DNA from: Geosiphon pyriformis uo1
Lineage: Eukaryota > Fungi > Glomeromycota
Assembly: GCA_016748015.1 (NCBI GenBank)
Contig: JAAOMT010000151.1
Location: 124,001 to 188,000, forward strand
Reading direction: 5' to 3'
Length of the DNA: 64,000 nt
The notes beneath the pieces were generated by a model. The model was not told where the DNA came from and ran no database searches. It saw only the letters and a program-made list of their open reading frames with translations. The translations under genes were made by a program, and so were the position numbers. Positions 8,625 through 35,100 of the stretch are shown here, in pieces. Each line of letters begins with the position of its first letter. Positions within the stretch are counted from its first letter, which is position 1.

Positions 8625-8669
8625 TTTGGTGCTCTCCTACGAAAATAACACAGCAATAACAATTTCAAA

Positions 8670-10510: not shown

Positions 10511-10652
10511 AACAATCTGTACTTCTAAAGGTGAAGTTGTAGCACCAAGATCAAACCCTTTCAACAACACTATTCCATCAGCTCAAATTGCCCAAAATGC
10601 TAACCTCTCAGATATATTCCCATTCGAATTTGAAGCAAATGAATCACTATTC

Positions 10653-13600: not shown

Positions 13601-14158
13601 TGGACACATTGTTAGCAAAAATGGAGTCAAACCAATTCCTAGAACAATCAGCACTGTCAAAAACTTTCAAACTCCCAAAAATACCACAGAACTATGAAGA
13701 TTTGTAGGATTAGCCTCTTATTATAGAAAATTCATAAAAGGATTCTCAGAAATTGTCAAACAACTCAACTATCTTACCAACAAAAACATGTCATATTAAT
13801 GGACTGAAGAACAACAAAAAGCTTTTGAAACTCTCAAAACAAAATTGACAACAGCCCCAGTTCTTGCTTACCCAGACTTTAACAAACGGTTTCAACTAGC
13901 CACTGATGCTTCACACATAACATTTGGTGTCATTCTATCACAATTGAATAAAAATGGCCAAGAACAAGTCATTGTCTATGCCAGTAGAACACTCAAGCCA
14001 ACAGAACTCAAATATGGCTCAACTAAATTGGAAGCTGCTGCAGTCATTTGGGCTTTTAAATATTTTCAACAATATCTGAAGAATGGAAAAGAATTTGACA
14101 TTATAATTGACAATATTGGTCTCAAATGGCTCAATAAAAAGAAAACTGAACAAAGTGC
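10653..14158 (+). pseudogene. pol: Element A pol 5' part: aspartic protease, Cys-rich insert, dUTPase, RT, RNase H
   Basis: LILDSGSAGS (PR). SPVILVKKK..RFCVDYRQLN, LDLKSGYWQ, MPFGL and YLNNI from YLDDI (RT). LATDAS and LEAAAVIWA (RNH). Confidence 0.92.
11990..12422 (+). pseudogene. dut: dUTPase domain within element A pol
   Basis: All five trimeric dUTPase motifs are recognisable: AGYDF, IASRSS, GVIDAEYTGDI, KIAQ and ERGTQGFGSTG. Two nonsense codons. Confidence 0.92.
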
Positions 14159-14875
14159 TGTTACAGGTTGAAGTAACAAGCTAACAAATAGCAAGGGAGA
14201 ACAGGATTATAAGATAATGGAAATAATCAAAGAGAATTCAACTTCAAAGAGCAAATTGAATGAATATGGATTCAATGTGTGAAATCAGTCTCATAAAATA
14301 TTTTAGTCACTATACTTTTCAAAGGTAACCGGAGAATCTGAAAGTAGAGGGATAGTCCATACTGTCAACAAATAATCACACTTGGTATAATTTTATGCCT
14401 CATATCAGCACTCTTAGAATTCAATATCAAGTATCAGATATGCTCTTCAGTCACGTTTTATTTAATAATCTTTAATTGCTGCAATTACACATTTCAGGAA
14501 AAAGGTAGGAAATAACCAACAAGTAATCTTTTATCTTTAAAATGTTCAGATACTTGAAAGTAGAGAAGGGGAAATTAGCGATAAGAGAATGATTGAAATA
14601 AACATTGTTATTTTATTTATTCTTGATTATTTTGAACATGCTTTTCTACAGCTAAGAGATTCATTGCTTATATAGTTGTCAAAAGTAGTCAATGATTAGG
14701 TCAACGACTAGGTCAATGATCAGATCAATGGTCAGGTCAATGATCAGGTCATTAATCAGGTCAATGATTAGGTCAATAATCAGATCAACAGTCAGGTTAT
14801 TGATCAAGTCAATAATAACTTACTAAAAATAGAGTGGCTAATTTATATGACATCAATGGCTAATACATGTGATAA

Positions 14876-15532
14876 TTAATAAGAAGTATAAGTTTCAACC
14901 ATAACATCATCTTTTCCAAAAAGATTAAGCTCTGGCAAAATCAAGCTATTCATGGAGTAATCTATTTGAAAGATTTTATCTAACTCAAAGCTAACTAGTT
15001 TGTTGAAGTTTTTTGTGGATAAGGTATATAACACTTGAGGCAAAATGAGTTTTGTATCCAAGAGACTAAATCTTTGTATTAGAGTTTTGGCTCTTTTAGC
15101 AATAGTTAAAACTCTTGAGACATCTAACCATATAATGCCCAAAATTTCTGCCTGTATCTTTGAAGTTGTTTTTTTCATGAGTTTCATATTCTTTATAATT
15201 TCACCAAGATGACCATAGAGTTCTAATTGTCTTCCATATGACAAGTTTTTGTCTATGGGTAAGATTTCTTGAAGTGTTTTTCTAATTATGTTGGAAGATA
15301 GGAGTATAGCTGCTATTATACTTTCCAACAGATATTTATCTATTTTACTACCAATTTTTTCTCTTTTGGTAGTAGTTTTCTTTGGTCTAATAACAGTATG
15401 TGTTCTACTGTTATCAGTTATGGTGGTTTGTTTTCCAATGGTCAGAGTAGCATTTGGATAGTTTTTGATCCAATACACATGGAGAATATAGAAGGCATTT
15501 TGAATGTTTTGATCCAAAAAATAATTGTTTAT
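14876..15532 (-). CDS. Element B ORF3 (unknown function, env position), reads through the PPT into the 3' LTR
   Basis: Stop-free frame downstream of the integrase stop (15574). The start is ATA here and ATG in copy C (MNNYFLDQNIQN). Confidence 0.7.
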   Translation of the reverse strand: MNNYFLDQNIQNAFYILHVYWIKNYPNATLTIGKQTTITDNSRTHTVIRPKKTTTKREKIGSKIDKYLLESIIAAILLSSNIIRKTLQEILPIDKNLSYGRQLELYGHLGEIIKNMKLMKKTTSKIQAEILGIIWLDVSRVLTIAKRAKTLIQRFSLLDTKLILPQVLYTLSTKNFNKLVSFELDKIFQIDYSMNSLILPELNLFGKDDVMVETYTSY

Positions 15533-15573
15533 GTCGATTGAAAATATCTCTGTTTTGGGAATAGTGCATTTAT

Positions 15574-18500
15574 TTATACTTGATTTTTGCTGATTATTTG
15601 AGTCGGTATTACCACAACAGGCAGCCAATCAGATTATTTATAATATTTCTTAAGTCATGTACTGTGAACAAGATGATTATTGAAGATTGTTCCAGATTGA
15701 TCTTGAAGAATATAAGAATCATTGTTCAAAATTTTGTTGATTATAAAGAGTTCTTTCCATTAGCTAAAGAATTTATTACCATAAATATTGTCTCTATCTG
15801 AATGGTATTCTAATACCAAGTTACCAATACTTAAAGAAAGTGTTTTATAGGTTTTTTTTTTTTTAAGCTTTTCTTGGAATTGTTTTATTTTTTTAAAAGC
15901 AATTATTTGTGCTTCTACCAAGGAGTCAAGAATAGTACCAAGTTTTTTTTGCAAAATGTCTTTGTAATTCTCTATTGTAATCTCTTCAAAGGGTATTGTT
16001 TCAATATTAGTTTTTATTAGTAGTATTGCCATGCATCCATAGAGCAGATAAAAAGATTTATAACTTGTTATGTCATGATTCACAGTTCTATAAGCAAACA
16101 AAACTGAAGGCAGTACTTTGTCCCATAAGTTTGTTTCTTCACTGGTTTTGGCTAGGGTTTCACATAATGTTTTATTGAAACGTTCTACTAAGCCTTTTGT
16201 TTGAGAGTAATAAGGGAAGAAAAGTTTATGATGTATTCCCATTTTTTTACAAAGTTTTTCAACCAGTGTACTGAGAAAAGCTCTTCTTCTATCAAATAAA
16301 AGTTCTTTGGAGCAACCATGATGGTAAATAATATCTTCATAATTGAAATTGGCTATTGAGACTGCTGTTTGGTCTGGGGTGGCTCTTGCTTTTACCTACT
16401 TTGTAAGATAGTCAGTAGCTGTGATAATATATCTGTTGCCATTAGAAGTGATTGTTAAAGGTCCAACAACATCTATACCAATTCTGTCAAATAGTTGACC
16501 AACAGAGATTGGATAAATATCTTCTTTGTGATTGGGTTTGCTTCTTCTTTGGCAGATGTTACAGGTTTTAATGTATTCATTAATGTCTTTTCTCAAGGTA
16601 GGCTAATAATAACGAGCTAAAGTTTTCTGAATTGTCTTTGTTTTTTCAAAGTGTCTAGTTAATGGGTCAGTGTGCATATTGTATATTACAATTTTTTTTT
16701 CTTCAAATCTGATGACTTTCTAGGGGCAGTCAAGATCTTTTCTGTTTCTTTTATATAATTGGTTCTGGCAGATCAAATAAAAATTTGATTGTTTGCACAA
16801 ATATTCTCTTTGCTGTCAAGTGTATTTAGGTGGATATTGTCCTTTACCCAAAAATTTCATTAAGGCAGAGTAGTTGTCCAAGTCTATTATCATGTTTGTT
16901 TATGAAAGAGTTACTAATAATTAAGTTGGTTTGGTTTGAGAGGTTGTACTGTCACTGGATGGTAAGTCTAAATAGAATATTGGCATTTTGATGATTTGCT
17001 CTTTTATGGTGTTGAATATTATAGTCAAATTCATCCAAGTGGAGTATTCAGCGAGTTATTTTTTTGTGTTCTAGCTTCTTTTTATTGTACAGCCAAACCA
17101 AGACTTGATGATCTGTTATTACTAAGAATTTTGCACCAAAAAGATATTGATCTCAATAGTTGGTAGCCCAAACTACTGCTAGACATTCCTGTTCTGTAAC
17201 TAAGTAATTTTTTTCTGTTGGTGTAAGGGATTTATTGGCATATGCTATGGCATGTTCTCTGCTATTTTCATCTTTCTGTGAAAGAACAGCACCAAGTTCA
17301 TAGCCAGATGTATCAGTGTAGAGGATAAAAGATTGGTCCAGATCAGGTTGTTTGAGAATTAGTTCAGTAACAAATTTTTTCTTTAGAAATTCAAAAGCTT
17401 TTTGTTGATGAGTGCTCCAGTAATAATTGACATTTTTTTTGAGTAGCTGATTGAGAGGAAAGGCAATTTTGAAGAAATCCTTAAAAAATTTGTAATAGTA
17501 AGAGGCCAAACCAAGGAAAGAGCATAGTTTAGGAACATTCATTAGTTGTTTAATGTTTTGAACTTTCTCAACTTTAGCTGAGTCAGGAAAAATTCTATTT
17601 TTTGTAACAAAATAACCAAAAAATTGGGTAGATTGGTGTCCAAAGAAAGATTTGATTGGGTTGATCTTAAGGCCAGCATTTCTGAGCAGGTCAAAAACCT
17701 TTTGTAAATGTTTAAGATGTTCATTCCAGGTTTTTGAATATATTATTATGTCATCCAAGTAAACCAGAACAAAGTTTTCTTTTACTAATTCAAACACTTT
17801 ATCTATTAGACATTAAAAGGTGAGAAGAACATTGATGAGACCAAAAGGCATAACTGTGAATTCATAGGTGCCATACTTGGTGATAAAGGCAGTTTTTTTT
17901 CTGCTTTCTGGGTCCATCTCTACTTGCCAGAATCCAGCAATTAAATCAATGGTTGAGAAGAAAGCAGCACTATTGAATTTATCTAACATTGCATCAATTT
18001 TGGGGAGTAGGTACATGTTTCTTATAGTGATAACATTTAATTAGCAGTAGTCAACACAGAAGCATAGGATTCCACCTTTCTTAGATACTACTACAACTGG
18101 AAAAGCCCATTTACTTTTGGTTTCTTGTATGAATTCAAGATCTTTCATCCAGTTTATCTTTTTCTTAATAAACTCATCATTGCATTAATTGGATTAATAA
18201 GGCTTCAAATAGATGGGGCGAGTTTCTTTGGTAGTGATGGTGTGTTGTATTATATGGGTTTGTCCAGGAGTGTCATCTTCTTTTGAGATAACTGGGCTAT
18301 TTCTAGCCAACAGATTTTCAATGTCCACTTTTCTTTCTTCAGAGAAAGGTTCTCTTTGTTTTACAACTAGTGATTGGATTTCAGGTGGTTCATTCTCAAA
18401 GAACTTTTGTACTTCTTTAAGTTCTTCTCGAGGTATCAAGCTAATTGGTTTCCAATTTTTGTAATAGATTAGGCAGGATTTGTATTTATCACTTGGTAAA

Positions 18501-19639
18501 TACAAAAGTTTATTACACCAGCACCATGCATAAGAGCCATGCCACCAATAACTGTATTTTGCTTTCTTGCCAGGTTTTTTGTCAAAGGTTCTTTTGAAGA
18601 TATTATAGTAGGGCCAGCAAATCAGTTTGCCATTTACCATGATTCCTTCTTTGTCAGCTTTAACATTGTCCAGTGGCTTGCCATTATTAGTAAAGATGGT
18701 ATAAGCGAGTTCAGCAGTTTCTTCTGGTTTTTCTTGATCTTCTTCATCATTGCTCTTATCATTATCTGATTCATCTGATTGTTCTTCTTCTTGGTTCTGC
18801 TTGGATACTGGAGAGATTGTCCAATATCAGCATTTAACCATAATAAGTTTCTTACCACATCTGATGGTTAGTTCACAAAGTTCATAGTCAAGTAATGCTT
18901 TGGTTTTCTTAAGCCATTTATTACCAACAATGATGGTATACTCTTTTGTTTTAGATACTTCCATATCTGTTTCAATGCTGATACTATTGATGTGGACAAA
19001 AATAGCTTTGGCTATGCTCAGGTCTTTCTTTTTGTCACCATGTACATTAGTCATTGGTCTTGTAGAAGACTTATCAATCTTTCTGCCAATTGCTTCAAGA
19101 AAATGTTTGGCAATTACACTAACAGATGATCTACTGTCTAGGATCAGATTAATAAAGTAACCAGTCACTTGGGCTTTACAAATCAAAGGGGTGACATTGC
19201 TGTTATCAGCAAGTTCAGCTTGGTGAGAGCATTTGTTGGTCTTTGGTGTCTTTTTTTTTGGTATCAATGATTTGCAAAGATTTTTTCTGAATTGTGGATG
19301 GGTCATCAGTTGGTTAAATGTAATGTGTGCTGAAGTTTCCATGAGATTTTTAACAACAGAATAGAGTCCAGATTTTTGTATAATTTTTGGGGGTTCCAAC
19401 TTTAGAAAATTTTTAAAAACTTTAGCCTTTAATGATTCATTGTTATTAGCAGTTGATGTGGAGACTTTCTTTGGATCTAGAACGAAATCAACCTTAGCTT
19501 TCTTCTTCTTTCTTGTTGATTCAGAGGTGTTGATTGCTAATTCATCCATGTTATGGTTATCATTAGTTAGGTTAAAAGCATAAAAAAGGTTTTCTTTTAG
19601 TTGGCTTGCACTTTCACCCTTTGGAGGTGCACTTACTAG
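15574..19639 (-). pseudogene. pol: Element B pol (PR, Cys/Trp-rich insert, RT, RNH, IN)
   Basis: LILDSRS (PR), VYLDDIIIYS (RT), LYTDTS and EQECLAVVWA (RNH), CNICQRR, GIDVVGPL and GLVERFN (IN). Confidence 0.92.
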
Positions 19640-21162
19640 TTTAAAGGCTAATAAATAGTGGCTTCAACTAGGGAATCCTCTCCAAAGAAATTGATGTTGG
19701 CATGATTGGTTTTTTGGTTGGGAACATTATTGTTAATGGTTCTGTTGTTTTGATTGTTATTGTTTCTAGGAGCTGGAGGGGGCAATGGAGGATTGTTGCA
19801 GTCTCTTAAAAAGTGTCCAGTTAGTCCACAACAATAGCACACAGGTGGGTCACGATTTTGCTGTCTTTGATATGGTGGTTGTTGGGACTGATTAAAATGG
19901 GGTTCAAATCTGGGTCTTTGGAATTGTTGATTCTCTTTAACTGCTTGGGCCAATAGTTCTAATAGCTGGGCAAGATTAGCTGTAAGCCTATCTATTAAAT
20001 GTTCATTTGGATCTTGAGTTTGGGCAGCAAAAGAGATAGTAGCTATTTGTGGAGCAGGAGCCATAATAGGAGCAGAAGCAAAAACTGAAAGTGTGGATCC
20101 CAAGTGCATCTTTTGGTTGTCTTCAATTCGTTGGGCAAGTTCAATGGCTATATCTATTGTGAGATTATCTTTTAAGGCCAGGAGGGGCCAAAGAGCATAT
20201 GATAAATCAGTTCTCAGTTCTTTTGTGAAGAAATATATTTTCTGCTCTTCTGTTTAATTTCTTCCAGAGTCTATCTATTTAATGAGTTTTTTTATTGCTT
20301 TGGCATATTCTGTCACAACCTCACCAGAGCCTTGTGTTCTTCTTTCTAATTCTATATGCCATTTTGAGATTAAGATGGGAGTTCTGAATTTCATTTCAAA
20401 CTAGGTAGTGAAAAAGGTGTTGTCTTTTCCAGCATTTGCTGGTGCTCATTTAATGATTCTTTGTTGAGCATTGGCATTAGGAGAGCCTTGGAGGTAGCCA
20501 CCAATGATTTGGAACTTGTATTCATTATCATATTGGTTTGCTGTGGCAGCTCTCTCAAAATCATCCAGCCATTCAATTAGATCTTGGGCATTATCTCTAA
20601 ATAATGGTAATGGAGTGTTGTTTTTTCGCCCTAAAGCAATCTATATACCTTGAAAGGCAATCAGAATGTTTTGTTGCAGAGGGTCTTGAGTCATTGGTTC
20701 AGGTGTAACTGTTTGTGTGGAGTGTTCTGATTTACTTGAAAAGAGATTAAAAACAGGAGTGGTTTGATAGCTTTCTTCTTTTGTTTTACGAGGAGTTTCT
20801 GTTGATTGATAGACAGCAATCCAAATATGGATTTGATGATTCAGATATTCGAAATCAGAGGGCTGTTGTTCAAAGGTTGTTGAGTATAAAAGTTGGTTAA
20901 TGCTGTTGTTTCTTTCTTCACAGTTGTCTTCAAAATAAGCTTGGTCAAAGTAATAGGTTGTATAAGCTGTGTAGGTTTTAGCTGAATGCTCATTCAAGAA
21001 CCAGTTCCAAAAGTCTTGGAATTGTCTGCTAGATTGTTTTTTAATGGGAAAGCAAATCAAGCAGAAGGGCAAAGGATTGAATTCAATAAAGTTTAGATCA
21101 TTTTTGTTGTGTGCTTCAAAGTGTTCTTCTGATTGTTGTGGCAGGTATGAATAATCACTCAT
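19640..21162 (-). pseudogene. gag: Element B gag
   Basis: Capsid motifs (QG.GEVVTEYAKA, seen intact in C) and knuckle CYCCGLTGHFLRDC. Confidence 0.88.
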
Positions 21163-21845
21163 ACAATAGGAAACAAAGTGAATTTTAACAATCTCACAGG
21201 AAGCACCACTTTTATGTTACAGGTTGGAGTAACAAGCTAACAGATAGCAAGAGAGAACAGAATTATAGGTGATAGAAATAATCAAAGGGAATTCAACTTC
21301 AAAGAGCAAATTGAATGAGTATGGATTCAATGTATAAGATCAGTCTTATAAAATATCTCAGTTGCTATACTTTTTAAAGGTAACTGGAGAATCTGAAGGT
21401 AGAGGAATAGTCTGTACTGTCAACAAATAATCACACTTGGTATAATTCTATGCCTCACATCAGCGCTCTTAGAATTCAATATCAAGTATCAGATGTGTTT
21501 TTCAGTTACGTTTTATTCAATAATCTTCAATTGCTGCAATTACACATTTCAGGAAAAGAGTAGGGAATAACCAACAAGTAATCTTTTATCTTTAAGATGT
21601 TCAGATACTTGAAAGTAGAGAAGGGGAAATTAGCAATAAGAGAATGATTGAGATGAACATTGTTATTTTATTTATTCTTGATTATTTTGAACATGCTTTT
21701 CTACAACTAAGAGATTCATTGCTTATATAGTTGTCAAAAGTGGTCAATGATCACTTACTAAAAATAGAGTGGCTAATTTATATAACATCAGTGGCTAATA
21801 CATGTGATAATTAATAAGAAGTATAAGTTTCAACCATAACAGTGC

Positions 21846-23400
21846 CAAACAGTCTTGATGGAATGACTTGCTAGCAGACTACAGATATATTGTATACCAC
21901 AAACCAGGAAAACTACACACCAATGTTGATAGTCTTTTAAGAATGAGACAAGATTAATATCAACAACAATTCTGCCACAACTTACCAACCTACTAACAAA
22001 ATAATCAAACAACAATAAATCTCAGAAATTACAGCAATCTTAAAAACTATTTGAAGACTTTTACCATGCCAGAAAATTGGTTTCCAGGTGAAAAACATCA
22101 TTTACAATACCAATCAAAACAATATTTTATACACCACAACAAAATCTATTATAAAAATCACAAAAATCCAAATCAACCACTCAGATTAGTACAAGAAAAG
22201 AAAAAAGAAACAATTTTATACAACATGTACACAGATCCGTCTTTAGCACACTTGGAAAGAGATGGAACAATTCAAAGAACTCTTGAACATTATTTTTGGC
22301 CTTACATGCAAAAAGACATTCGACAATATGTAGAATCTTGTGATAGTTGTCAAAGAAGAGGAGGAATTCACCCCACAGAACCTTTAAATCTAATCAAAGT
22401 TGGACAACCTTTTAACAGAGTTGGAATTGATCTAGTTGGACTATTACCTATCACAACCCAAAAAAATTGTTATATTGCAGTCGCAGTAGATTATCTTATC
22501 AAATGGCCTGAAGCTAGAGCCATCCAAAGAGCAGATGCAAAATTAGTAGCAAATTTCATCTATGAAGACATTTTTTGTAGACATGAATGTCCAATTGAAC
22601 TTTTATCTGATCAAAGAACACATTTTGTGAACAACTTGATACAAGAAATTTGTGAACAATTCAATGTCAAAAGACCTTTATCATCACCTTATCACCCTCA
22701 AACAAATAAACTTGTAAAACATTTTAACAGAACATTATGTGAATCTTTAGCCAAAGTCTCAACAGATTTTGAGCAGGAATAAGATATCTTTATTCCATCA
22801 GTGTTATTAGCATACAAAACACTAAAACAAGATACTATAAAACACATACTATTTGATCTTACTTATGAAAAAACAGCAACATTACCAATTAATTTTACAG
22901 TAGAAACATATTCAGTACAACCAATCAATGAAGAAAACTTTCAAGAAACACTTCAAAAAAAAGCCTACACTCTTCTTAGCACATTGAAAGGAAAGAGACA
23001 CATAACAGCCACTCATATTGAATACTTCCAAGCCCTACAAAAAAAAAGACATAACAACAAACTGCCACCAGTTACCAATGAATTTAAGATTGGAAATAAA
23101 GTTCTCTTACACAGAACTAAGGCTGAAAAACAATGGAGTGTAAAATTTGAACATAAATGAGATGGACCATTTTATATCCACAAAATTTTAGGCAATGAAT
23201 TATACAAGTTAAGACTTGATGACAAAGTACTAGTAAAAGTTGTACATAGAGATAGATTGAAACACTATTATTCCAAAAACAATCCTGAATCATTAATTCC
23301 ACAAATTAGTATACATTCCCCTTTAGTTAATTCTGAAGATATTCCCCAAAATTTAGAACCAATAATTATAATAAAACAACAACCAAACTTGAACACTTAA
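21846..23400 (+). pseudogene. pol: Element A pol 3' part: RNase H tail and integrase (HHCC, DDE, GPF/SH3-like), no chromodomain
   Basis: YFWP..CDSCQRR, GIDLVG, LLSDQ, HPQTN and GPFY; ends LEPIIII. Confidence 0.92.
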
Positions 23401-23558
23401 TTTAATATTTATAATAATCCCTTTTAAAAATATAGACAAAATATAAAACAAAAATAGTAAATAATCACAAGAAACATTCAAACCCAAAAACAAATAAAAA
23501 CTTTATACCCAAAAATAATTTTCTTTATTTTTTTTCTTTATTAGTTAGTCATTTTATC

Positions 23559-24266
23559 ATGATTATTCCCCAAAATATTCAACAAATATCCCAAAAATTA
23601 ATGTTAGCCTTAAAAACACTTTCTGACTTATTCATAACAATTTATGGAAGTCAAATTAATTACATTCAGAAAGAAACCACAGCTCCAGTAGTAAATAATT
23701 CTCAGAACTATCACTTCTATAGAAAAAAAACAAGAAATCACTTTGGAAATAGGTTATCAGAACTTTTGAAGCAAGCATTGAAAGAAAATCTTTTAATTGC
23801 CCCTATTGACATCCCACCAAATGCCACATTACAACAAAAATTTCTACTATTTTTCAATAAACAGAACAATGAATATACCCCTATATATAGATATTTTCAT
23901 ATTGAAAAAACACTTTATGAACGAAAACTGGAACTTAAAGCAACCAACATCACTCCTGAGACTGTACAAAAACAAATTCACAATAAATTTAAGGCAGCAG
24001 CTGGCCCAACAAACACTTGCTACAAACTTAGAACAGCTTTTAGACTCTATAATTTGTTCAACACTTGTGAAAATGTCCTACAAAATCTAATACTGCAACC
24101 AATAAAAGTTCAATACATTGGCAAACTCACAGAACTAAAATTTCAACAATTTTTAGACCAAATCACTTCAATTATTCTGGACTACTATCTTGACATCACA
24201 AATAGTGCTTGGACTTTGACGGAGCTCAGTTTTAAGAAGAAGATTATGTTATCAGTAGAATTTTAG
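23559..24266 (+). CDS. Element A ORF3 (235 aa, unknown function, env position)
   Basis: ATG-initiated stop-free ORF about 160 bp after the integrase stop, with its stop 20 nt inside the 3' LTR. Confidence 0.72.
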   Translation: MIIPQNIQQISQKLMLALKTLSDLFITIYGSQINYIQKETTAPVVNNSQNYHFYRKKTRNHFGNRLSELLKQALKENLLIAPIDIPPNATLQQKFLLFFNKQNNEYTPIYRYFHIEKTLYERKLELKATNITPETVQKQIHNKFKAAAGPTNTCYKLRTAFRLYNLFNTCENVLQNLILQPIKVQYIGKLTELKFQQFLDQITSIILDYYLDITNSAWTLTELSFKKKIMLSVEF

Positions 24267-24430
24267 CTATTAATTAGCATGAAATTATCTTCATAATTCT
24301 TATTATTATTATTTCAATTATTACTTATTAATTAGCCAAATTATCAAATATTATTACTTAATCAATAACCCGATTTGTACTATAGAAATTAAGATGATCA
24401 AATTACACAATACTCTGAACCATTTAATAT

Positions 24431-27400
24431 TGTTATGGGTTAAAATAACAAGCTAACAGATAGCAAGGGAGAACAGAATTGTAGGGTGATGGAAATAATC
24501 AAAGGGAATTTAACTTCAAAGAGCAAATTGAATAAGTATGAATTCAATGTGTGAGATCAGTCTCATAAAATATCTCAATCACTATACTTTTCAAAAATAA
24601 CTGGAGAATCTGAAGGTAGAGGAATAGTCTGTACTGTTAACAAATGATCACACTTGATATAATTCTATGCCTTACGTCAGTACTCTTAGAATTCAATATC
24701 AAATATCAGATGTGCTTTTTAGTTATGTTTTATTTAATAATCTTCAAATGTTGCAATTTACACATTTCAGGAAAAAGGATAAGAGATAACCAACAAGTAA
24801 TCTTTTATCTTTAAGATATTCAAATACTTGAAAGTAGGAAAAGAGAAATTAGTGATAAGAGAAGGATTGAGATAAAATTGTTATTTTATTTCTTTATTTC
24901 TTTAATTTTTACATACTTTTCTACAGCTAAAATATTTATTGCTTATATAGCTATCAAAAGTGGTCAATGATCAAGTCAATGGTCAGATCATTGATCAGAT
25001 CAATAATTACTTTCTAAAAATAGAGTGGCTAATTTATATGACATCATTGGCTAATACATGTAATAATTAATAAAAAGTATAAGTTTCAATCGTAATATTA
25101 TCCTCTCTAAAGAGATTGAGCTCCAGCAAAATCAAGCTATTCATGAGGTAATCTATTTGAAGGGTTTTATCTAACTCAAAGCTAACTAGTTTGTTGAAGT
25201 CTTTTGTGAATAAGGTATATAACACTTGAGGCAAAATGAGTTTTGTATCCAAAAAACTAAATCTTTGTATTAGAGTTTTGACTCTTCTAGCAATAATTAA
25301 AACTCTTAAGATATCTAATCATATAATGCCCAAAATTTCTGTCTGTATCTTTGAAGTTGTTTTTTTCATGAGTTTCATATCCTCTATGATTTTACCAAGA
25401 TGACCATAGAGTTCTAATTGCTTTCTATATAACAAGTTTTTGTCTATGGGTAAGATTTCTTGAAGTGTTTTTCCAATTGTGTTAGAAGGTGAAAGTATAG
25501 CTGCTGTTATACTTTTCAACAGATATTTATCCATTTTACTACCAATTTTTTCTCTTCTGGTAGTAGTTTTCTTTGGTCTAATAACAGTATGCATTCTACT
25601 GTTATCAGTTATAATGGTTTGTTTTCTAATGGTCAGAGTAACATTTGGATAGTTTTTGATCCAATACTCATGGAAAATATAGAAGGTGTTTTGAATGTTT
25701 TGATCCAGAAAATAATTGTTCATGTCAATTGAAGATACCTCTGTTTTGGGAATGGTGCATTTATTTATACTTGATTTTTGCTGATCATTTGAGTCAGTAT
25801 TACCATAACAGGCAGCCAATCAGGTCATTTATGATATTTCTTGAGTCGTGTACTGTGAACAGAATGATCCTTGAAGATTGTTCCAGATTGATTTTAAAGA
25901 ATATAAGAACCATTGTTCAAAATTTTGTTGACTATAAAAGGTCTTTTCTACTGGCTAGAGAATTTATCACCATAAACATTGTTTCTATTTGAACATAATT
26001 CCAATATCAAGTTACTAACACTCAAAGAAAGTGTTTTATAGATTTTTTTTTTCTTAAGCTTTTCTTGGAACTGTTTTATTTTTTCAAAAGCAATTATTTG
26101 TGCTTCTACTAAGGAGTCAAGAATGGTACCAAGTTTTTTTTGCAAAATGTCTTTGTAATTCCCTATTGTGATCTCTTCAAAGAGTATTGTTTCAATATTA
26201 GTTTCTATTGTTAGTATTGCCATGCATCCATAAAGCAGATAAAAAGGTTTATAACTTGTTATGTCATAATTCACAGTTCTATAAGCAAACAAAGCTGAAG
26301 GCAGTACTTTGTCTCATAAGTTTGTTTCTTCACTGGTTTTGGCTAGGGTTTCACATAATGTTCTATTAAAATGTTCCACTAGGCCATTTGTTTAGGGGTG
26401 ATAAGAGGAGGAAAGTTTATAACATATTCCCATTTTTCTACAAAGTTTTTCAACTAATGTACTGAGAAAAGCTCTTCTTCTATCAAATAAAAGTTTTTTG
26501 GAGCAGCCATGACAGCAAATGATATCTTCATAAATGAAATTGGCTATTGAGACTGCTGTTTGGTCTGGGGTGGCTCTTGCTTCTACCCACTTTGTAAGAT
26601 AGTCAGTAGCTGTGATAATATATTTGTTGCCATCAGAAGTGATTGTTAAAGGTTTAACAACATTTATACCAATTCTGTCAAAGGGTTGACCAACAGAGAT
26701 TGAATAGATATCTTTTTTGCGATTGGGTTTGCCTCTTCTTTGGCAGATGTCACAGATGTTAATGTATTTAGTAATGTCTTTTTCCAAGGTAGGCCAATAA
26801 TAATGAGCTAAAGTTTTCTGAATTGTTTTTGTTTTTCTAAAGTGTCCAGTTAATGGGTCAGTGTGCATGTTATATATTACAATTTCTCTTTCTTCAAATC
26901 TGATGACTCTTTGGAGGCAGTTAGGATCTTTTCTGTTTCTTTTATATAATTGGTTCTGGTGGATCAAATAGAAATTTGATTATTTGCACAAATGTTCTCT
27001 TTGCTGTTGAGTGTATTCAGGTGTGTATTGTCTTTTACCCAAAAATTCCATTAAGACAGAGTAGTTGTCCAAGTCTATTATTGTGTTTGTTTATGAAGGA
27101 GTTACTAATAATTAAGTTGGTTTGGTTTGAGAGGTTGTACTGTCACTGGATGATAAGTCTAGATAGAGCATCAGCGTTTTGATGATTTGCTCCTTTGTAG
27201 TGTTGAATATCATAGTTGAATTCATCCAAGTGGAGTATTCAATGAGTTATTTATTTGTGTTCCAGCTTCTTTTTATTGTGCAACCAAATCAAGGCTTGAT
27301 GATCTGTTACCACTAAAAATTTTGCACCAAAAAAATATTGATCCTAGTAGCTAGTAGTCTAAACTACTGCTAGACATTTTTGTTCAGTAACTGAATAGTT

Positions 27401-30400
27401 TTTTTCTGCTGGTATAAGGGATTTACTGACATATGCTATTGCATGTTTTCTGCCATTTTCATCTTTCTGTAAAAAGACAGCACCAAGTCCATAGCCAGAT
27501 ATATTAGTGTGGAAGATAAAAGGTTGATCCAGATCAGGTTGTTTGAGAATTGGTTCAGTAACAAGTTTTTTCTTCAGAAATTCAAAAGCTTTTTGTTGAT
27601 GAGTGCCCCAGTGATAATTGACATTTTTTTTGAGTAGCTAATTGAGAAGAAAGGTGATTTTGGAGAAATTCTTGATAAATTTGTGATAGTAAGAGACCAA
27701 ACCAAAGAAAAAGTGTAGTTCAGGAACATTCATTGGCTGTTTAATGTTCTGGACTTTTTCAACTTTAGCTAAGTTAGGGAAGATTCTATTTTTTGTAATA
27801 AAATGACTAAGAAACTGGGTGAATTGGCATCCAAAGAAAGATTTGATTGGGTTGATCTTAAGGCCAGTATTTCTGAACAGTTCAAAAACCTTCTGTAAAT
27901 ATTCAAGGTATTCATTCCAGGTTTTTGAATATATCATTATGTCATCCAAGTAAACCAGAACAAAGTTTTTTTTTACTAATTCAAACACTTTATCCATTAG
28001 GCATTGAAAGGTGGGAGGAGCATTAGTGAGACCAAAAGGCATGACTGTGAATTCATAGGTGCTGTACTTGGTGATAAAGGCAGTTTTCTTTCTGCTTTCT
28101 GGGTTCATCTCTACTTGCCAGAATCCAGCAGTTAAGTTAATAGTTGAGAAGAAAGCAGCACTATTGAATTTATCTAGTATTGCATCAATTTTGGGAAGTA
28201 GGTACATATCTCTTATAATGATGACATTTAATTGGCGGTAGTTAACACAGAAGCATAGAGTTCCATCTTTCTTGGATACCACTACAACTGGAAAAGCCCA
28301 TTTACTCTTGGTTTCTTGTATGAATTCAAGATCTTTTATCTGGTTTATCTCTTTCTTAATAAACTCATTATTGCGTCAATTGGATTGATAAGGCTTCAAA
28401 TAGATGAGGCAAGTTTCTTTGGTAGTGATAGTGTGTTGTATCACATGTGTTCATCCAGGGGCATCACCTTCTTTTGAGATAATTGGGCTATTTCTAGTCA
28501 ACAGATTTTCAATGTCTACTTTTCTTTCTTCAGGGGAAGCTTTTCTTTGTTCTATAACTAGTGATTGGATTTCAAGTGGTTCATTCTCAAAGAACTTTTG
28601 TATTTCTTTAAGTTCTTCTTGAGGTATTAAACTAATTGGTTCCCAATTTTTGTAATAGATCAGACAGGATTTGCATTCATCACTTGGTGAATACAAAGGT
28701 TTATTGCACCAGCACTATGCACAAGGGCCATGCCATCAATAACTGTATTTGGCTTTTTGTCAAAGATTCTTCTGAGAGTATCATAATAGGGCCAGCAGAT
28801 TAGCTTGCCATTTACCATAATTTCTTCTTTGTCAGCTTTAACATTGTCCAGTGGCTTGCCATTACTGGTGAAGATGGTATAAGTGAGTTCAGCAGTTTCT
28901 TTTTGTTCTTCTTGATCTTCTTCATTATTGCTCTCATTATCATCTGATTGTTCTTTTTTTTGGTTCTGTTTGGTTGCTAGAAGAGTTGTCCAATGACGGC
29001 ATTTAACCACAATGGGTTTTTCACCACATCTGATAGTTAGCTTGCACAGTTCATAGTCAAGTAGTGCTTTGGCTTTCTTAAGTCACTCATTACCAACAAT
29101 GATGGTATACTCTTTTGTTTCAGATACTTCCATATCTGTTTCAATGTTGATACTATTGATGTGGACAGAAATAGCTTTGGCTATGCCCAGGCCTTTCTTC
29201 TTGTCACTATATATATTGGTTATTGGTCTTGTGAAAGGCTCATCAATTTTTCTGCCAATTGCTTCAAAAAAGTGTTTGGCAATTACACTAACAGATAATC
29301 CACTGTCTAAGATCAGGTCAATAAAGTAACCAGTCACTTGGGCTTTACAAATCAGAGGAGTGACATTGCTGTTGTCAGCGAGTCCAGCTTGGCGAGAGCG
29401 TTTGTTGGTTTTTGGTGTCTTCTTTTTTGGTATTAATGATTTGCGAAGATCTTTTCTAAACTGTGGATGGGTTATTAGTTGGCCAAATGTAATGTGTGCA
29501 GGCATTTCCATGAGATTCTTAACAACAGAATAGGGTCCAGATTTTTGTACAATTTCTGAGAGTTCCAACTTTGGAGGATTTTTAAAAACTTTAGCCTTTA
29601 GTGATTTATTGTTATCAGCAGTTGATGTGGAGACTTTCTTTGGATCTAGAATGAAATCAACCTTGGCTTTCTTCTTTTTTCTTGTTGATTTAGAGATGTT
29701 GATTGCTAATTCATTCATGTTATGGTTATTATCAGTTAGGTTAAAAGCATAAAAAGAGTTTTTTTCTGGTTGGCTTGCACTTTCACCCTTTGGAGATACA
29801 CATACCAGTTTAAAGGCTGATAAACAGTAGCCTTAACTAGGGGATCCTCTCCAAAGAAATTGATGTTAGCATGATTGGGTCTTTAATTGGGAACATTGTT
29901 GTTACTAGTTCTGTTGTTGTCATTGTTTTTAGGAGCTGGAGAAGGCAGGGGAGAATTGTTATAATCTTTGAAGAAATTTCCAGTTAATCCACAATGGTAA
30001 CACACAAGTGGGCCATGATTTTGTTGTCTTTGATATGGGAGTTGCTGGGGTTGATTAAAACGGGGTTCAAATCTGGGTTTTTGGAGTTGTTGATTCTCTC
30101 TGACAGCTTGGGCTAAGAGTTCCAGTAATTAGGCAAAATTAGCTGTGAGTTTATCTATTTACTGTTCATTTGGGTCTTGAGTTTGGGCAGCAAAAGAAAC
30201 AGCAGCCATTTGTGAAGCTGAAGCCATGACAGGAGCAGAAGCAAAAACTAGAAGTGTGGATCCCAAATGCATCTTTTGGTTATCTTCAATTCTTTGTGCC
30301 AGTTCAATAGCCATGTCCATTGTTGGGTTGTCTTTTAAAGCCAAGAGAGGCCAAAGAGCATATGATAGATCAGTTCTTAATCCTTTTGTGAAGGAATGGA

Positions 30401-32152
30401 TCTTTTGTTCTTCTGTCCAGTTTCTCTCAGAGTCTATATGTTTGATTAGCTTTCTAATAGCTTTGGCATATTCAGTCACTACTTCTCCAGGGCCTTGGGT
30501 TCTTTTTTCCAATTCCATGTGCCATTTAGATATTAATATTGGGGTTCTAAACTTGGCTTCAAACCAAATGATAAAAGAGGTATTTTCTTCTCCAGCATTG
30601 ATTGGTGTCCATTTGATTATTCGGTGTTGAGCATTGACATCTGTTTCTTGTGAAAACCAGATAGCAAGAAAGCCTTGGAGGTAGCCACCAATGATTTAGA
30701 ACTTGTATTATTCATCATACTGGTTGGCTGTGGCACCTCTTTCAAAATCATCCAACTATTCAATTGGATCTTGTACATCACCTCTAAATAGTGGTAGTGA
30801 GATATTGTTTCTTCTTCTTAGAGCAGTTTGTATACCTTAGAGGGTGGCCAAAATGTTTGCTTGCATGGGGTCATTAGTCATTGGTTCAGAAGTAACTGTT
30901 TGTATAGATGAGTCTGATTCACTTGATAAAAGATCAAAAACAGGGGCAGTTTGGTAGTTTTCTTTTTCTGTTTTAAAGAGAGTTTCAGTTGCTTGATGGG
31001 CAGCAATCCAAATGTGGATTTGATGATTCAGATATTCGAAATTAGGGGGCTGTTGTTCAAAGATTGCAGAATATAAGAGCTAATTGATACTGTTGTTTTT
31101 TTCTTCAAAGTCATCTTCAAAATAAGCTTGGTCAAAGTAATAGATTGTATAAGTTGTGTAGATTTCAGCTGAATGCTCATTCAGAAACCAGTTCCAAAAG
31201 TCTTGGAATTGTCTGCTAGATTGTTTTTCAATGGGGAAGCAAATCAAGCAGGAGGGCAAAGGATTAAGTTCAATAAAGTTTAGATTGTTTTTGTTGTGTG
31301 CTTTAAAGTGTTCTTCTGATTGTTGTGACAGATATAAATAATCACTCATACAATAGGAAACAAAGTGGATTTTGACAACCTCACAGGGAGTACCATTTTT
31401 ATGTTATGGGTTGGAGTAACAAGCTAATGGATAGCAAGGGAGAACAGAATTGTAAGGTGATAGAAATAATCAAAGGGAATTTAACTTCAAAGAGCGAATT
31501 GAATAAGTATAGATTCAATGTGTGAGATCAGTCTCATAAAATATCTCAGTCGCTATACTTTTCAAAGATAACTGGGGAATCTGAAGGTAGAAAGATAGTT
31601 CATACTGTCAACAAATGATCACACTTGGTATAATTTTATGTCTCACGTCAGCACTCTTAGAATTTAATATTAAGTATCAGATATGCTCTTCAGTTATGTT
31701 TTATTCAATAATCTTCAAATGTTGCAATTTACACATTTTCAGAAAAAAGGTAAGAGATAACCAACAAGTAATCTTTTATCTTTAAGATATTCAGATACTT
31801 GAAAATAGGAAAAAAAAAATTAGTAATAAGAGAAGAATTGAGATGAAGTTGTTATTTTATTTCTTTATTTTTTTGATTCTTACATACTTTTCTACAGCTA
31901 AAATATTCATCACTTATATAGCTATCAAAAGTGGTCAATAATCAAGTCAATAGTCAGGTCAATGATCAGGTCATTGATCAGGTCAATAATTAGGTCATTG
32001 ATTAGGTCAACAATCAGGTCAATGATTAGGTCAATGGTCAGGTCATTGATCAGGTCAATGATCACTTTCTAAAAATAGAGTGGCTAATTTATATGACATC
32101 ATTGGCTAATACATGTAATAATTAATAAGAAGTATAAGTTTCAATCATAACA
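24431..32152 (-). mobile_element. Ty3/Gypsy element C (family B), full length, inserted in the 3' LTR of A
   Basis: LTRs 24431-25097 and 31402-32152. TSD ATAT/ATAT. gag 31349-29808, pol to 25765 and ORF3 25723-25067, all colinear with B. Confidence 0.95.
25067..25723 (-). pseudogene. Element C ORF3 (one internal stop at 25319)
   Basis: Near-identical to B ORF3. Confidence 0.72.
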
Positions 32153-35100
32153 ATATAGTCAAAATTCGCTGAAATTAATGGAAAAATTGCCGAAATAATC
32201 AATAATTTGTAGAAATAACTTGTAGTTTGCCGAAATGTATCTTTAGTTCACTCAAATTGTAAAAAAGAGAAAAGTGCAAGTTTAAAGACTAGTACTACAA
32301 CAAGTTATATAAAAGAAGAGCTTCTCTCTTCAAAAAAATATATCCTTCTTATATCTTATTATAATATCTTACTTTAGATATCTTAATTAGAACAAATTAC
32401 TTTTTACAAAAATTAAATAAAAATCAAATATTCAAAAACCAAATTCTTAAATTATTACACTTGAAATTCTCTCAACACAACTAACGTTTTGAAATTGATT
32501 AACTACCAATTTCAATAAACTGTTAGTGACTTCAGACCTGAATAAAAAACGTTTTCTTTGATAAAATCCTATTTCTTTTATATTTCTTTTATTTTTCTTT
32601 TATTTTCTTATTACAAATCATTAGAGTAGTCTACAGACAAGATTCCTGTAGAAGAGTTGACTTTCACAGCAAAATAACTACACATTTTTAGTGAGCTTCT
32701 AGATGAGCAATTCCTGGAAAAGAATTGATGTTTACTACAACGTAACTACACAAAGTAACTGGCACAGAATTGGCCATTCCACTTATAAGTCCAGCAGTTC
32801 AAATTATAGGAGATAATTTGAAGATAAATTCAGTTATTGGAGGTTCAACTACTTCTAGAAAACGTGAATTTAAAACAAACAGACATTAATAACATTTAAG
32901 AAAAGAGACCAAAAAACCTTCAGTAACAATAGTCAAATTATTAATCAGGTCAATAATTACTTTTTAAAAATAGAGTGGTTAATTTATATAACATCAGTGG
33001 CTAATACATATGATAATTAGTAAGAAGTATAAGTTTTAACCATAATAGTATGTTGTATTATATGTGTATATTTAGAAGTATTATTTTTTTTTGAAATAAT
33101 TAGACTATTTCTAGTTAGCAAGTTTTCAATATCTACTTTTCTTTTTTCTAAAGAGGGTTTTTTTGTTTCACTATTATTAATTAAATTTTTTGTGGTTTAT
33201 TTTCAAGAAATTTTTGTATTTTTTTTATTTTTTCTTTGAGTATTAAGCTAATTAGTTTCCAATCTTTGTAATAAATCAAACAAAACTTGTATTTATTACT
33301 AAAAAAATACAATAATTTATTGTACTAATATTAAATACAAGAATTATATTACCAATAACTGTATTTGGCTTTTTTGCCAGGTTTTTAATTAAAAATTTTT
33401 TTGAGTATATTATAATAAAATCAACAGATTATCTTGCCATTTACAATAATTCTCTTTGTTTGCTTTAATATTATTCAATAATTTGCTATTATATATAAAA
33501 ATAGTATAGGTAATTTCAGTAGTTTTTTCTTGTTTTTTTTTTTTTTTTTTATTACTTTTTTTATGATCTGATTTATTTAATTGTTTTTCTTCTGGGCTTT
33601 ACTTAGGTACTAAAAAAGTTGTTCAATAACAACACTTAATTACAATGAGCTTTTCATTACATTTGATAATTAGTTTACAAAGTTTATAATCTAGTAAAAT
33701 TTTTGTTTTCTTAAACTACTTATTGTTAACAATAATAGTGTATTTTTTAGCTTTAGAAACTTTTATGTTAGATTTAATATTGATGTTGTTAATGTAAACA
33801 GGAACAGCTTTAATTATGTCCAGATCTTTTTTTTGTTACTGTGTATATTGATTATTAGTCGAATATAAGATCTATTAATCTTTCTGCTAATGGCTTTTAA
33901 AAAATGTTTGACAATAACACTAACAGATAATTTATTGTCCAAGATCAAGTTAATAAAATAACTAGTTATTTGAGCTTTACAAATTAGAGAGATAATATTG
34001 CTATTGTTGATGAGTTTAGCTTATTAAAAATGCTTATTAGTTTTTGGTGTTTTTTTTTCTAGGATTAATGATTTGCAAAATTTTTTTTTGATTTGTAAAT
34101 GAGTTATTAACTGACTAAAAGTAATGTAAGCTGGGTTTTTATAAGATTTTTAACAACAAAATAGAGACCTGATTTTTGTACAATTTTTGGTGGTTTCAAC
34201 TTTGGAAAATTCTTAAAAACTTTGGTCTTTAGTGGTTTATTGTTATTAGCAGTAGAAGCTTTATTAAGTTTTAAAATAAAATCAACCTTAGCTTTTTTCT
34301 TCTTTCTTGTAAATTCAGAAAGATTAATGGCTAGTTCATCTATATTATAGTTATTATTAGTTAAATTAAAAACATAAAAAGAGTTTTCTTTTGGTTGGCT
34401 TGTATTCTCACTCTTTGAAGATATATTTACCAATTTAAAAACTGATAAACAGTGGTTTTAACTAAGAGATTATTTCCAAAGAAATTAATGTTAACATAAT
34501 TAAGTTTTTAATTGGAAGTATTATTGTTGATAAGTTTGTTATTCTGGTTATTATTGTTTTTAGGAATTAAAAAAGGCAAAGAAAAATTGTTGTAATTTCT
34601 GGAGAAATGTCTAATTAATCCACAACAATAATACACAAATAGATTACAATTTTGTTATTTTTGATAAAAAAATTGCTAAAGCTGATTAAAATAGAGTTCA
34701 AATTTAGGTTTTTAGAGTTGTTAAGTTTTTTCAACAGTTAAGCTAATAGTTCTAATAACCAGACAAGATTGGCTATAAGTTTATCTATTAATTATTTATT
34801 GAGATTTTGGGTTTGGATAGCAAAAAAAGTAACAGTTATTTGAAAAACAAAAACTAAATAGAAACAAAAGCAAAAACTGGAAATATTGATTCCAAATGCA
34901 TTTTTTGATTATTTTCTATTTTTTGTACAAGCTCAATAGTTATATCTATTGTAAGATTATATTTCAGAGCTAAAAAAAGCCAAAAAACATAAGATAAGTC
35001 AGTTTTCAATTCTTTTGTAAAAGAATAAATTTTTTATTTTTTTGTTCAATTTTTTCTAAAGTCTATTTATTTAATGAGTTTTTTATTGCTTTAGCATATT

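What the first reader, a model, noticed from the sequence alone, without database searches (positions are those of the whole stretch)
23559..24266. Non-env third ORF shared by three Ty3/Gypsy families
Seen: A (23559-24266, +), B (15532-14876), C (25723-25067) and a remnant in F (about 3271-3990) each carry a ~220-235 codon ORF between the integrase stop and the 3' LTR. In A, B and C it reads through the PPT and stops 20-30 nt inside the LTR. A and B have unrelated LTRs and gag N-termini, yet their ORFs share a scaffold: QNIQ near the start; YFHI(E/G)K vs YGHLGE; a helix ending RTAFRLYNLF vs IAKRAKTLIQRF; IKVQYIGKLTELKF vs ILPQVLYTLSTKNF. F shows YYL..Q and KVLRLT. I see no signal peptide, TM segment or furin site. 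Inference: this is a conserved soluble accessory protein of this clade (e.g. anti-silencing, targeting or spread through a coenocytic mycelium), probably expressed from a subgenomic or spliced RNA. It is the best candidate here for an undescribed system.
Basis: partly seen in the sequence, partly recalled or inferred. Interest (0 to 1): 0.78.

Follow-up and report, generated by a model that had tools for sequence, protein, structure and literature searches.

The report
Unnamed third gene of fungal retrotransposons
Several jumping-gene families in what is likely the fungus Geosiphon carry, where a retrovirus keeps its envelope gene, a conserved gene for a small soluble protein of no named family, which likely binds the element's own DNA or RNA to help it get expressed, a job that is still untested.

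Summary
ORF3 is real. It lies between the integrase stop and the 3' LTR in A (235 codons, intact), B (ATA start) and C (one internal TGA), and ends 20-31 nt inside the LTR. A and B each head a multi-copy family; all 240 listed homologs are named Geosiphon pyriformis. A's protein belongs to a wider family of five lineages at 19-35% identity. It includes the F remnant (E 3e-14) and a near-intact metagenomic Gypsy element with the same RT-RH / integrase / ORF3 / PPT layout (dN/dS 0.32-0.50). It is not env, and it reaches no Pfam or NCBIfam cut-off. The predicted structure is an alpha/beta-hairpin module, a basic linker and a helical domain with a conserved G-K-T-N turn. Likeliest job (about 40%): a non-enzymatic nucleic-acid-binding regulator. 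Non-env ORF3s are a known kind, and this scan noted similar ORFs in two other genomes.

The parts
23559..24266 (+). Element A ORF3, 235 aa, intact; runs through the PPT and ends 20 nt inside the 3' LTR
   Evidence: 206 homologs
23401..23558 (+). A spacer between integrase stop and ORF3 ATG: 158 nt, 16% GC, no ATG, pyrimidine tract with AG 14 and 10 nt before the ATG (not conserved in other elements)
21997..23400 (+). A integrase reading frame (H2C2, rve, SH3-like C-terminus), separate from RT-RH, whose stop ends at 21957; 2 internal stops
24221..24246 (+). GGAGCTCAG motif plus polypurine tract, overlapped by ORF3
7305..8624 (+). A 5' LTR (holds a 20-N gap at 8127 and a 329-nt duplication that is probably an assembly artefact)
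24247..24430 (+). A 3' LTR, left part (interrupted by element C)
32153..32928 (+). A 3' LTR, right part
8649..14158 (+). A gag, protease, dUTPase (about 12000-12420), RT and RNase H, decayed; interrupted by element B at 14159
14876..15532 (-). Element B ORF3, 218 codons open, ATA at the start in this copy; ends 31 nt inside the 3' LTR
   Evidence: 130 homologs
14159..21841 (-). Element B (LTRs 21215-21841 and 14159-14906, 93% identical; GTGC target duplication), inserted in A's RNase H
25067..25723 (-). Element C ORF3 (B family), ATG start, one in-frame TGA at codon 135
24431..32152 (-). Element C (B family; LTRs 31402-32152 and 24431-25097, 92% identical; ATAT target duplication), inserted in A's 3' LTR
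3465..3932 (+). Element F ORF3 remnant (detected part; many stops), homologous to the A lineage through two further Geosiphon families
   Evidence: HMM iE 3e-14; tblastn 34% over 99 aa, E 7e-12
3007..3283 (+). Element F integrase C-terminal remnant; a decayed PPT and an LTR start follow at about 3997

Best explanation
ORF3 is a real, conserved accessory gene of a Ty3/gypsy clade with a stand-alone integrase, encoding a soluble 220-240 aa protein that likely acts without catalysis, by binding the element's own DNA or RNA, to promote its expression or protect it from host silencing. SHOWN: open frames in the pol-to-LTR slot; a five-lineage family that includes A and F; the same slot in an independent element; dN/dS below 1 between lineages; no membrane segment. 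PREDICTED: an N-terminal helix plus beta-hairpin, a variable basic linker, and a helical domain whose three central helices (100-119, 126-141, 146-160 in P0277) flank a conserved G-K-T-N turn, like a helix-turn-helix. INFERRED: B's ORF3 is a distant member (about 0.7). The protein is made as the last cistron of a gag-pol / integrase / ORF3 message, by re-initiation after an AT-rich spacer or from a subgenomic RNA, rather than by a conserved splice. It works in the nucleus on the element's nucleic acid. The read-through of the PPT is a by-product of compaction and not a protein function.
For: Family: a profile search of 1.84 billion representatives gave 56 hits, 5 of them distant. All 5 score 40-76 bits with the A-only profile. 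The five lineages are 19-35% identical, with invariant I7, L14, I27, I34, L65, Y102, G108, L111, G142, N145, F160, L167, G181 and I195. Synteny: L001 has RT-RH stop, a separate integrase, a 316-nt spacer and a 230-aa ORF3 that ends 32 nt inside the LTR. Selection: dN/dS is 0.45 (A/L001), 0.50 (A/L002) and 0.32 (L001/L002), with codon position 2 best kept. The two A subfamilies differ at 18 of 30 linker positions but 15 of 95 core positions (p 6e-6). Copy number: 65 of 120 listed A homologs and 22 of 120 listed B homologs look full length. Structure: best model mean pLDDT 79, blocks 61-200 at 85-96. Nucleic-acid hints: basic residues in all or most lineages at 131 (5 of 5), 143, 155, 39 and 52 (4 of 5) and 149 (K/R/H in 5 of 5). 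Only one acidic column (59) is shared by all five and no H or C is invariant, which argues against an active site. Weak structural rows include HTH proteins on the same helices: SigmaF 1l0o_C (Z 3.7, rmsd 2.4, 57 aligned), Spo0J 1vz0 (Z 4.0, rmsd 4.2, 88) and KorB 1r71 (Z 3.4, rmsd 4.5, 89). B link: same clade (integrase 41-42% to A and L001), same slot; global profile score reached by 2 of 400 block shuffles without the PPT tail; 0 of 89 decoy windows reach B's mean score.
Against: The function has no direct evidence. The HTH-type rows are at Z 3.4-4.0, tied with unrelated helical proteins and below the tool's noise level. The other four of five models had mean pLDDT 57-62. The least decayed members are not basic overall (P0277 pI 5.4, P0278 5.9, P0021 5.8). 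HHalign finds no A-B match, none of the five distant proteins scores above 2.9 bits with the B-only profile, and the C-domain alone is not above shuffles (63 of 400). B/C dN/dS for ORF3 is 0.87, higher than for their integrase (0.63) and protease (0.59). Between-lineage dS is near saturation (1.7-2.1), so those ratios are rough. The global aligner is my own, with hand-set gap costs, and the decoy set is small and overlapping.
Confidence: 0.42

Rival explanations
1. ORF3 is a protein-protein adaptor: it would bind the separately made integrase, Gag or a host chromatin factor, to bring integrase into the particle or steer integration.
For: The clade makes integrase as its own ORF (L001, A, B, C), so it needs another route into the particle (inference). 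The protein is helical, has no catalytic signature, and intact members have near-neutral or acidic net charge.
Against: Conserved basic residues cluster around the G-K-T-N turn. ORF3 diverges about twice as fast as integrase (28% vs 55% between A and L001), faster than expected for a tight core partner (inference). No ORF3-integrase or ORF3-Gag model was run.
Confidence: 0.25
2. A/F and B/C carry two unrelated accessory genes that were captured separately into the same slot; the shared scaffold is chance likeness between helical, AT-rich proteins plus the shared PPT DNA. (This rival concerns homology and can hold together with either function.)
For: BLASTP E 3.5; HHalign Prob 0.1-2.7; no bridging protein among 56 hits; C-domain not above shuffles. 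The spacers differ (41 nt vs 158-316 nt).
Against: Near-collinear global alignment with z 3.1-3.6 that survives removal of the PPT tail; N-terminal module reached by 3 of 400 shuffles; 0 of 89 decoys. Equal length and slot. With integrases 41% identical and ORF3 evolving about twice as fast, undetectable identity is expected.
Confidence: 0.3
3. ORF3 antagonises a host defence protein (RNAi or DNA-methylation machinery) or aids spread in the coenocytic mycelium, without binding the element's nucleic acid.
For: Copies are CpG-depleted (observed/expected 0.0-0.2 vs 0.40 for the window), which fits host methylation and pressure to counter it. Fast divergence is typical of such conflicts (general knowledge).
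Against: No similarity to a known suppressor or movement protein at sequence level. No direct evidence.
Confidence: 0.15
4. ORF3 is a degenerate envelope protein.
For: It sits in the env slot, in sense orientation.
Against: No hydrophobic segment (maximum 19-residue hydropathy 1.44), no furin site in 10 of 10 proteins, 0-3 cysteines, 218-259 aa.
Confidence: 0.03
5. The ORF is a non-functional by-product of constrained 3' DNA.
For: B/C dN/dS 0.87; the tail overlaps the PPT.
Against: Stop-free probability about 1e-8, codon-structured conservation across lineages, and core-versus-linker contrast.
Confidence: 0.02

Closest known systems
Sense additional ORFs between pol and the 3' LTR (aORF-3S) and accessory aORFs of plant LTR retrotransposons (Vicient and Casacuberta 2020, PMC7264820; main text read, parts 1-2 of 3)
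   Same: Extra conserved ORF in the pol-to-3' LTR slot, present in many copies, function unknown; the review proposes regulatory roles like retroviral accessory proteins for the antisense ones.
   Different: The sense aORFs it describes are env-like, some with TM segments; this one is soluble. The nuclear examples (Grande gene23) are antisense. Here the ORF overlaps the PPT and U3 and follows a stand-alone integrase, in a fungus. Sequence similarity to those proteins was not tested directly.
Non-env ORF3s of bdelloid rotifer Juno/Vesta elements (GDSL esterase-like, DEDDy exonuclease-like; PMC5408684, passages read)
   Same: A third ORF without TM or coiled-coil features, thought to be auxiliary.
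   Different: Those are captured enzyme folds; this family keeps no catalytic-type residues and reaches no Pfam cut-off.
CERV of C. elegans Cer1 (PMC10309623, abstract read)
   Same: Precedent for a novel accessory protein of an LTR retrotransposon that acts in the nucleus on the element's own RNA: the 'works like' model.
   Different: CERV comes from a spliced mRNA; no conserved splice acceptor is seen here. Homology was not tested and none is claimed.
dUTPase-bearing fungal Gypsy elements such as PosPlaTy3-5, and 'add. ORF' elements (PMC2864245, passages read)
   Same: dUTPase between protease and RT, as in A; that survey's figure legend marks additional ORFs of unknown function in fungal Gypsy elements.
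   Different: That survey describes fused Gag-Pol or two-ORF elements. Its additional ORFs were not compared with this family; its .DOC supplements were not read.
DUF1016_N (PF17761), helical N-terminal domain of YhcG-type nucleases (PMC1189080, passages read)
   Same: Visual likeness: Y-x-x-IG helix, Gly turn, helix ending LY..F, then G-x-l; Pfam E 0.03-0.04 on the matching stretch in 2 of 30 proteins.
   Different: Far below the Pfam cut-off (15 vs 32.8 bits). Profile-profile scores equal the reversed control. It remains a lead only.

Membership tests
Ty3/gypsy (Metaviridae) LTR retrotransposon (host elements) | TG...CA LTRs, target duplication, PBS/PPT, order gag-PR-RT-RH-IN | tested here: met
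Additional ORF between pol and 3' LTR (aORF-3S / ORF3) | Sense ORF downstream of the integrase stop, present in many copies of the family | tested here: met
Additional ORF between pol and 3' LTR (aORF-3S / ORF3) | Conserved under selection across families | tested here: met
   A lineage: dN/dS 0.32-0.50 and core/linker contrast. For B it is inconclusive (0.87).
Additional ORF between pol and 3' LTR (aORF-3S / ORF3) | Expressed from its own spliced or subgenomic transcript | not testable with these tools
   No reads could be laid; no conserved acceptor in the spacers
Env / env-like glycoprotein | Transmembrane anchor | tested here: not met
   Maximum 19-residue Kyte-Doolittle mean 0.44-1.44 in 10 proteins; the 1.6 rule of thumb is recalled
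Env / env-like glycoprotein | Furin-type cleavage site R-X-K/R-R | tested here: not met
   0 of 10 proteins
Env / env-like glycoprotein | N-terminal signal peptide | tested here: inconclusive
   Hydropathy only; no dedicated predictor, and an upstream exon cannot be excluded
Captured-enzyme ORF3 (GDSL, DEDDy, AlkB types) | Pfam match and conserved catalytic residues | tested here: not met
   No such Pfam family; one shared acidic column, no invariant H/C
DUF1016_N / YhcG N-terminal domain | Pfam gathering score or significant profile-profile match | tested here: not met
   15 bits vs 32.8 cut-off; HHalign 19.5-20.4 vs reversed control 19.0-19.8 and shuffle maximum 23.4
Helix-turn-helix nucleic-acid-binding domain (ParB/KorB/sigma type) | Three-helix core with a Gly turn, structurally superposable | tested here: inconclusive
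   Model helices and G-K-T-N turn; rows at Z 3.4-4.0 only
Helix-turn-helix nucleic-acid-binding domain (ParB/KorB/sigma type) | Binds DNA or RNA | not testable with these tools
   needs an experiment
A-lineage ORF3 family (defined here), membership of B/C | Significant profile match to the five-lineage family | tested here: inconclusive
   HHalign not significant; custom global test 1-3 of 400 shuffles, C-domain 63 of 400

The most novel reading that the evidence does not exclude
ORF3 is a sequence-specific anti-silencing or trans-activating factor with an undescribed HTH-like fold, shared by all stand-alone-integrase Gypsy families including B. It binds the element's own LTR or RNA, and its fast divergence between families tracks their unrelated LTRs. 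It would be a fungal LTR-retrotransposon counterpart of retroviral Tat/Rev or of the VANC proteins of plant DNA transposons (names recalled), and would help explain why LTR elements fill about 41% of the Geosiphon genome (PMC11952901).
Probability: 0.15. Interest if true: 0.8.

Novelty: new variant of a known kind. Interest (0 to 1): 0.5.

Why it matters
Accessory genes of LTR retrotransposons are mostly unexplained, and the few solved cases (env, CERV) changed how these elements are understood. This family has no name, is conserved across at least five lineages, has a confidently modelled core and an intact member (L001) that can be expressed. That makes the question of how fungal retrotransposons get expressed or evade methylation in mycorrhizal-type fungi directly testable. 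It also flags over 300 Geosiphon 'hypothetical proteins' as transposon products and not host genes.

Tried and rejected
No whole genome is held, so no genome-wide copy analysis or within-family dN/dS. No RNA holder was listed for 22800-24430; this says nothing on expression. Fold searches with the P0277 model gave no clear match: Foldseek PDB and viral libraries had 0 hits at E<=0.001; VIA wide had a best Z of 4.6 and none >=5 among 48,161 chains; VIA on Foldseek hits had a best Z of 3.8. This shows neither a new fold nor a different one, and the two modules were not folded and searched separately. B was never folded (both jobs spent). A two-copy complex job gave no answer (score 0.01, alignment not used). 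PDB sequence searches: best E 0.3 (FtsQ), none, and 0.25. PHROGs best E 0.0012, unknown function. NCBIfam: only far-below-cut-off rows. ESM Atlas top scores 0.76 and 0.78, under the 0.9 mark; the two rows shown for A were unnamed Mucoromycota-leaning clusters. IMG/VR scans found no ORF3 relative. The DUF1016_N idea (recalled, then tested with 42 non-redundant YhcG sequences) was not supported. A rare-versus-shared substitution test (p 5e-6 for A, 0.014 for B) was set aside because recurrent G-to-A changes (E/K, R/K, M/I) inflate it, and its hydrophobic-core version showed nothing (p 0.6). A conserved splice acceptor was rejected: A has a tract and AG, L001 and L002 do not. Literature: eight searches (listings only) showed no paper describing this protein family. 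The Geosiphon genome paper did not appear in these listings, Repbase/GyDB/Dfam could not be searched, and the .DOC supplements of PMC2864245 were not seen.

Full report
SETTING. The window holds a nest of decayed Ty3/gypsy elements. Element A spans 7305-32928 (+). B (14159-21841, -) is inserted in A's RNase H. C (24431-32152, -, same family as B) is inserted in A's 3' LTR. F is an old remnant at about 3000-4000. LTR pairs are 92-97% identical. No whole genome is held. All 120 listed homologs of A's ORF3 (of 206) and all 120 listed of B's (of 130) are named Geosiphon pyriformis hypothetical proteins, so the host is likely that fungus (inference). PMC11952901 (passages) gives 41.2% LTR content for that genome.

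OBSERVATION. A's ORF3 (23559-24266) is an intact 235-codon frame. B's (15532-14876) is open for 218 codons but begins with ATA in this copy. C's (25723-25067) has an ATG and one in-frame TGA at codon 135. They start 158, 41 and 41 nt after the integrase stop and end 20, 31 and 31 nt inside the LTR. Such frames are not chance (about 1e-8). 65 of 120 listed A homologs and 22 of 120 listed B homologs look full length. None of 10 proteins tested has a membrane-like segment or a furin site, and none reaches a Pfam or NCBIfam cut-off for this region.

THE A LINEAGE IS A WIDER FAMILY. A combined A+B profile run over 1.84 billion representatives gave 56 hits. Five were distant: P0277 (JGI), P0278 (ENA) and two further Geosiphon families (P0280/P0281 and P0283). 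All five score 40-76 bits with the A-only profile and at most 2.9 bits with the B-only profile, so they are A relatives and do not bridge to B. A profile built from them finds the F remnant at 3465-3911 (E 3e-14), which the A, B and A+B profiles had missed. The five lineages are 19-35% identical.

SYNTENY AND SELECTION. The metagenome scan confirmed 2 loci out of 447 pattern matches. L001 is a near-intact element: RT-RH, stop, 24 nt, a separate integrase ORF, a 316-nt AT-rich spacer, then a 230-aa ORF3 running through the PPT and 32 nt into the LTR. L002 has the integrase end, a 128-aa extra ORF, then ORF3. dN/dS is 0.45 (A/L001), 0.50 (A/L002) and 0.32 (L001/L002); dS is near saturation, so these values are rough. 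The two A subfamilies differ at 18 of 30 linker positions but only 15 of 95 core positions (p 6e-6). Against this, B versus C gives 0.87 for ORF3, compared with 0.63 for integrase and 0.59 for protease. That pair mostly records decay after insertion, but it gives no support for selection on B.

IS B THE SAME PROTEIN? Standard tools do not show it: BLASTP E 3.5, HHalign Prob 0.10, 2.7 and 0.30. My own global profile aligner gives a near-collinear alignment. Its score is reached by 1 of 400 block shuffles (full length), 2 of 400 (PPT tail removed), 3 of 400 (N-terminal module) but 63 of 400 (C-domain). 0 of 89 decoy windows reach the mean score of 11 B proteins (24.3; decoy maximum 23.6). B belongs to the same clade (RNase H stop, then a separate integrase with 41-42% identity to A and L001). 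ORF3 keeps 28% identity where integrase keeps 55%, so undetectable identity is expected at B's distance. I put homology at about 0.7. The tail likeness (ELS/ELN..EE) is discounted: it lies on a GGAGCTCA-plus-purine DNA motif shared by all elements. The P0283 family ends in GAQF, and F reads the motif in that frame, which suggests the same DNA read in another frame (inference; no DNA was held for P0283).

STRUCTURE. With a 30-sequence alignment the best model of P0277 has mean pLDDT 79 and pTM 0.65, with blocks 61-200 at 85-96; the other four models averaged 57-62. It shows a helix plus beta-hairpin (7-38), a low-confidence basic linker (40-52) and a helical domain. Conserved across all five lineages are hydrophobic core positions, Y102, G108, G142, N145, F160, G181 and a basic residue at 131; K143 and R155 hold in four of five. 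There is one shared acidic column and no invariant His or Cys, so an active site is unlikely. Helices 100-119, 126-141 and 146-160 around the G-K-T-N turn are arranged like a helix-turn-helix. SigmaF (Z 3.7, rmsd 2.4, 57 aligned), Spo0J (Z 4.0, rmsd 4.2, 88) and KorB (Z 3.4, rmsd 4.5, 89) appear among weak, tied rows. These are leads at noise level; the other fold searches are given under Tried and rejected. A recalled likeness to DUF1016_N gave Pfam E 0.03-0.04 in 2 of 30 proteins but did not beat reversed or shuffled controls.

HOW IT LIKELY WORKS. Expression (inferred): the clade already places integrase behind a stop and a short spacer. ORF3 follows another stop and a spacer of 26-316 nt (15-37% GC), with no upstream ATG in A or L002, one in B and C, and two in L001. 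No splice acceptor is conserved. Re-initiation or a subgenomic RNA is therefore more likely than a conserved splice. Function (inferred, about 0.4): a soluble, non-catalytic regulator that binds the element's DNA or RNA through the helical domain and basic linker, promoting expression or resisting silencing. The CpG depletion of the copies (0.0-0.2 observed/expected) fits host methylation. Against it, the least decayed members are slightly acidic overall. The main rival is an adaptor for the stand-alone integrase, Gag or chromatin (0.25).

COMPARISON AND NOVELTY. Extra ORFs in this slot are a known kind: plant aORFs (PMC7264820, main text), bdelloid non-env ORF3s (PMC5408684, passages) and fungal 'add. 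ORF' elements (PMC2864245, passages). CERV (PMC10309623, abstract) is the precedent for a nuclear RNA-handling accessory protein. This protein fails the tested env features and matches no captured-enzyme family. Eight literature searches (listings) showed no description of it. This scan noted similar third ORFs in two other genomes and the split integrase in this genome. Sequence look-ups found no shared stretch, so whether those are the same family is unknown.

VERDICT. A real, conserved, unnamed accessory gene family of a fungal Gypsy clade. A-F homology is shown, A-B homology is likely, and the function is open. New variant of a known kind; interest 0.5.

Noticed in passing
L002:425-811: An extra 128-aa ORF sits between the integrase stop and ORF3 (26 nt before it). 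No Pfam match; a 55-aa stretch is 36% like the pre-zinc-knuckle part of a Geosiphon Gag fragment in P0124 (pairwise E 3e-8). Some members of the clade may carry four cistrons.
   Followed up: partly
window 21955-22075 (A); about 16950-16890 (B); L001:772-801: Integrase is a separate ORF behind the RNase H stop in A, B, C and L001 (24-nt spacer in L001), as earlier notes on this genome say.
   Followed up: partly
window 7301-7304/32929-32932, 14155-14158/21842-21845, 24427-24430/32153-32156: Target duplications ACGG/ATAG (A), GTGC/GTGC (B) and ATAT/ATAT (C) all fit a 4-bp site with a present or decayed central CG.
   Followed up: partly
window about 12000-12420: Element A carries a dUTPase between protease and RT; none was detected in the B or C frames scanned.
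   Followed up: no
window 7798-8475: A 329-nt direct duplication around a 20-N gap in A's 5' LTR is probably a scaffolding artefact.
   Followed up: no
window 4278-6666 and 33045-36677: An older, more AT-rich B-family element is split by a B-type LTR (6663-7304 plus about 32929-33045) into which A then inserted; no ORF3 was detected in it.
   Followed up: partly
window 24221-24246; 14907-14935; L001 near 3090-3116: A GGAGCTCA motif just upstream of the purine tract is shared by families with unrelated LTRs and appears to be read in different frames, suggesting a cis-acting signal next to the PPT.
   Followed up: partly
window 37400-43500: Decayed sequence similar to the non-ORF3 parts of chimeric Geosiphon gene models (LINE-like by recall); not annotated further.
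   Followed up: no
window 115-1328 (-): Two frames with weak or partial Pfam matches (FAM192A/Fyv6 N-terminal, E 3e-10; exostosin GT47, E 0.001): probably host gene exons.
   Followed up: no
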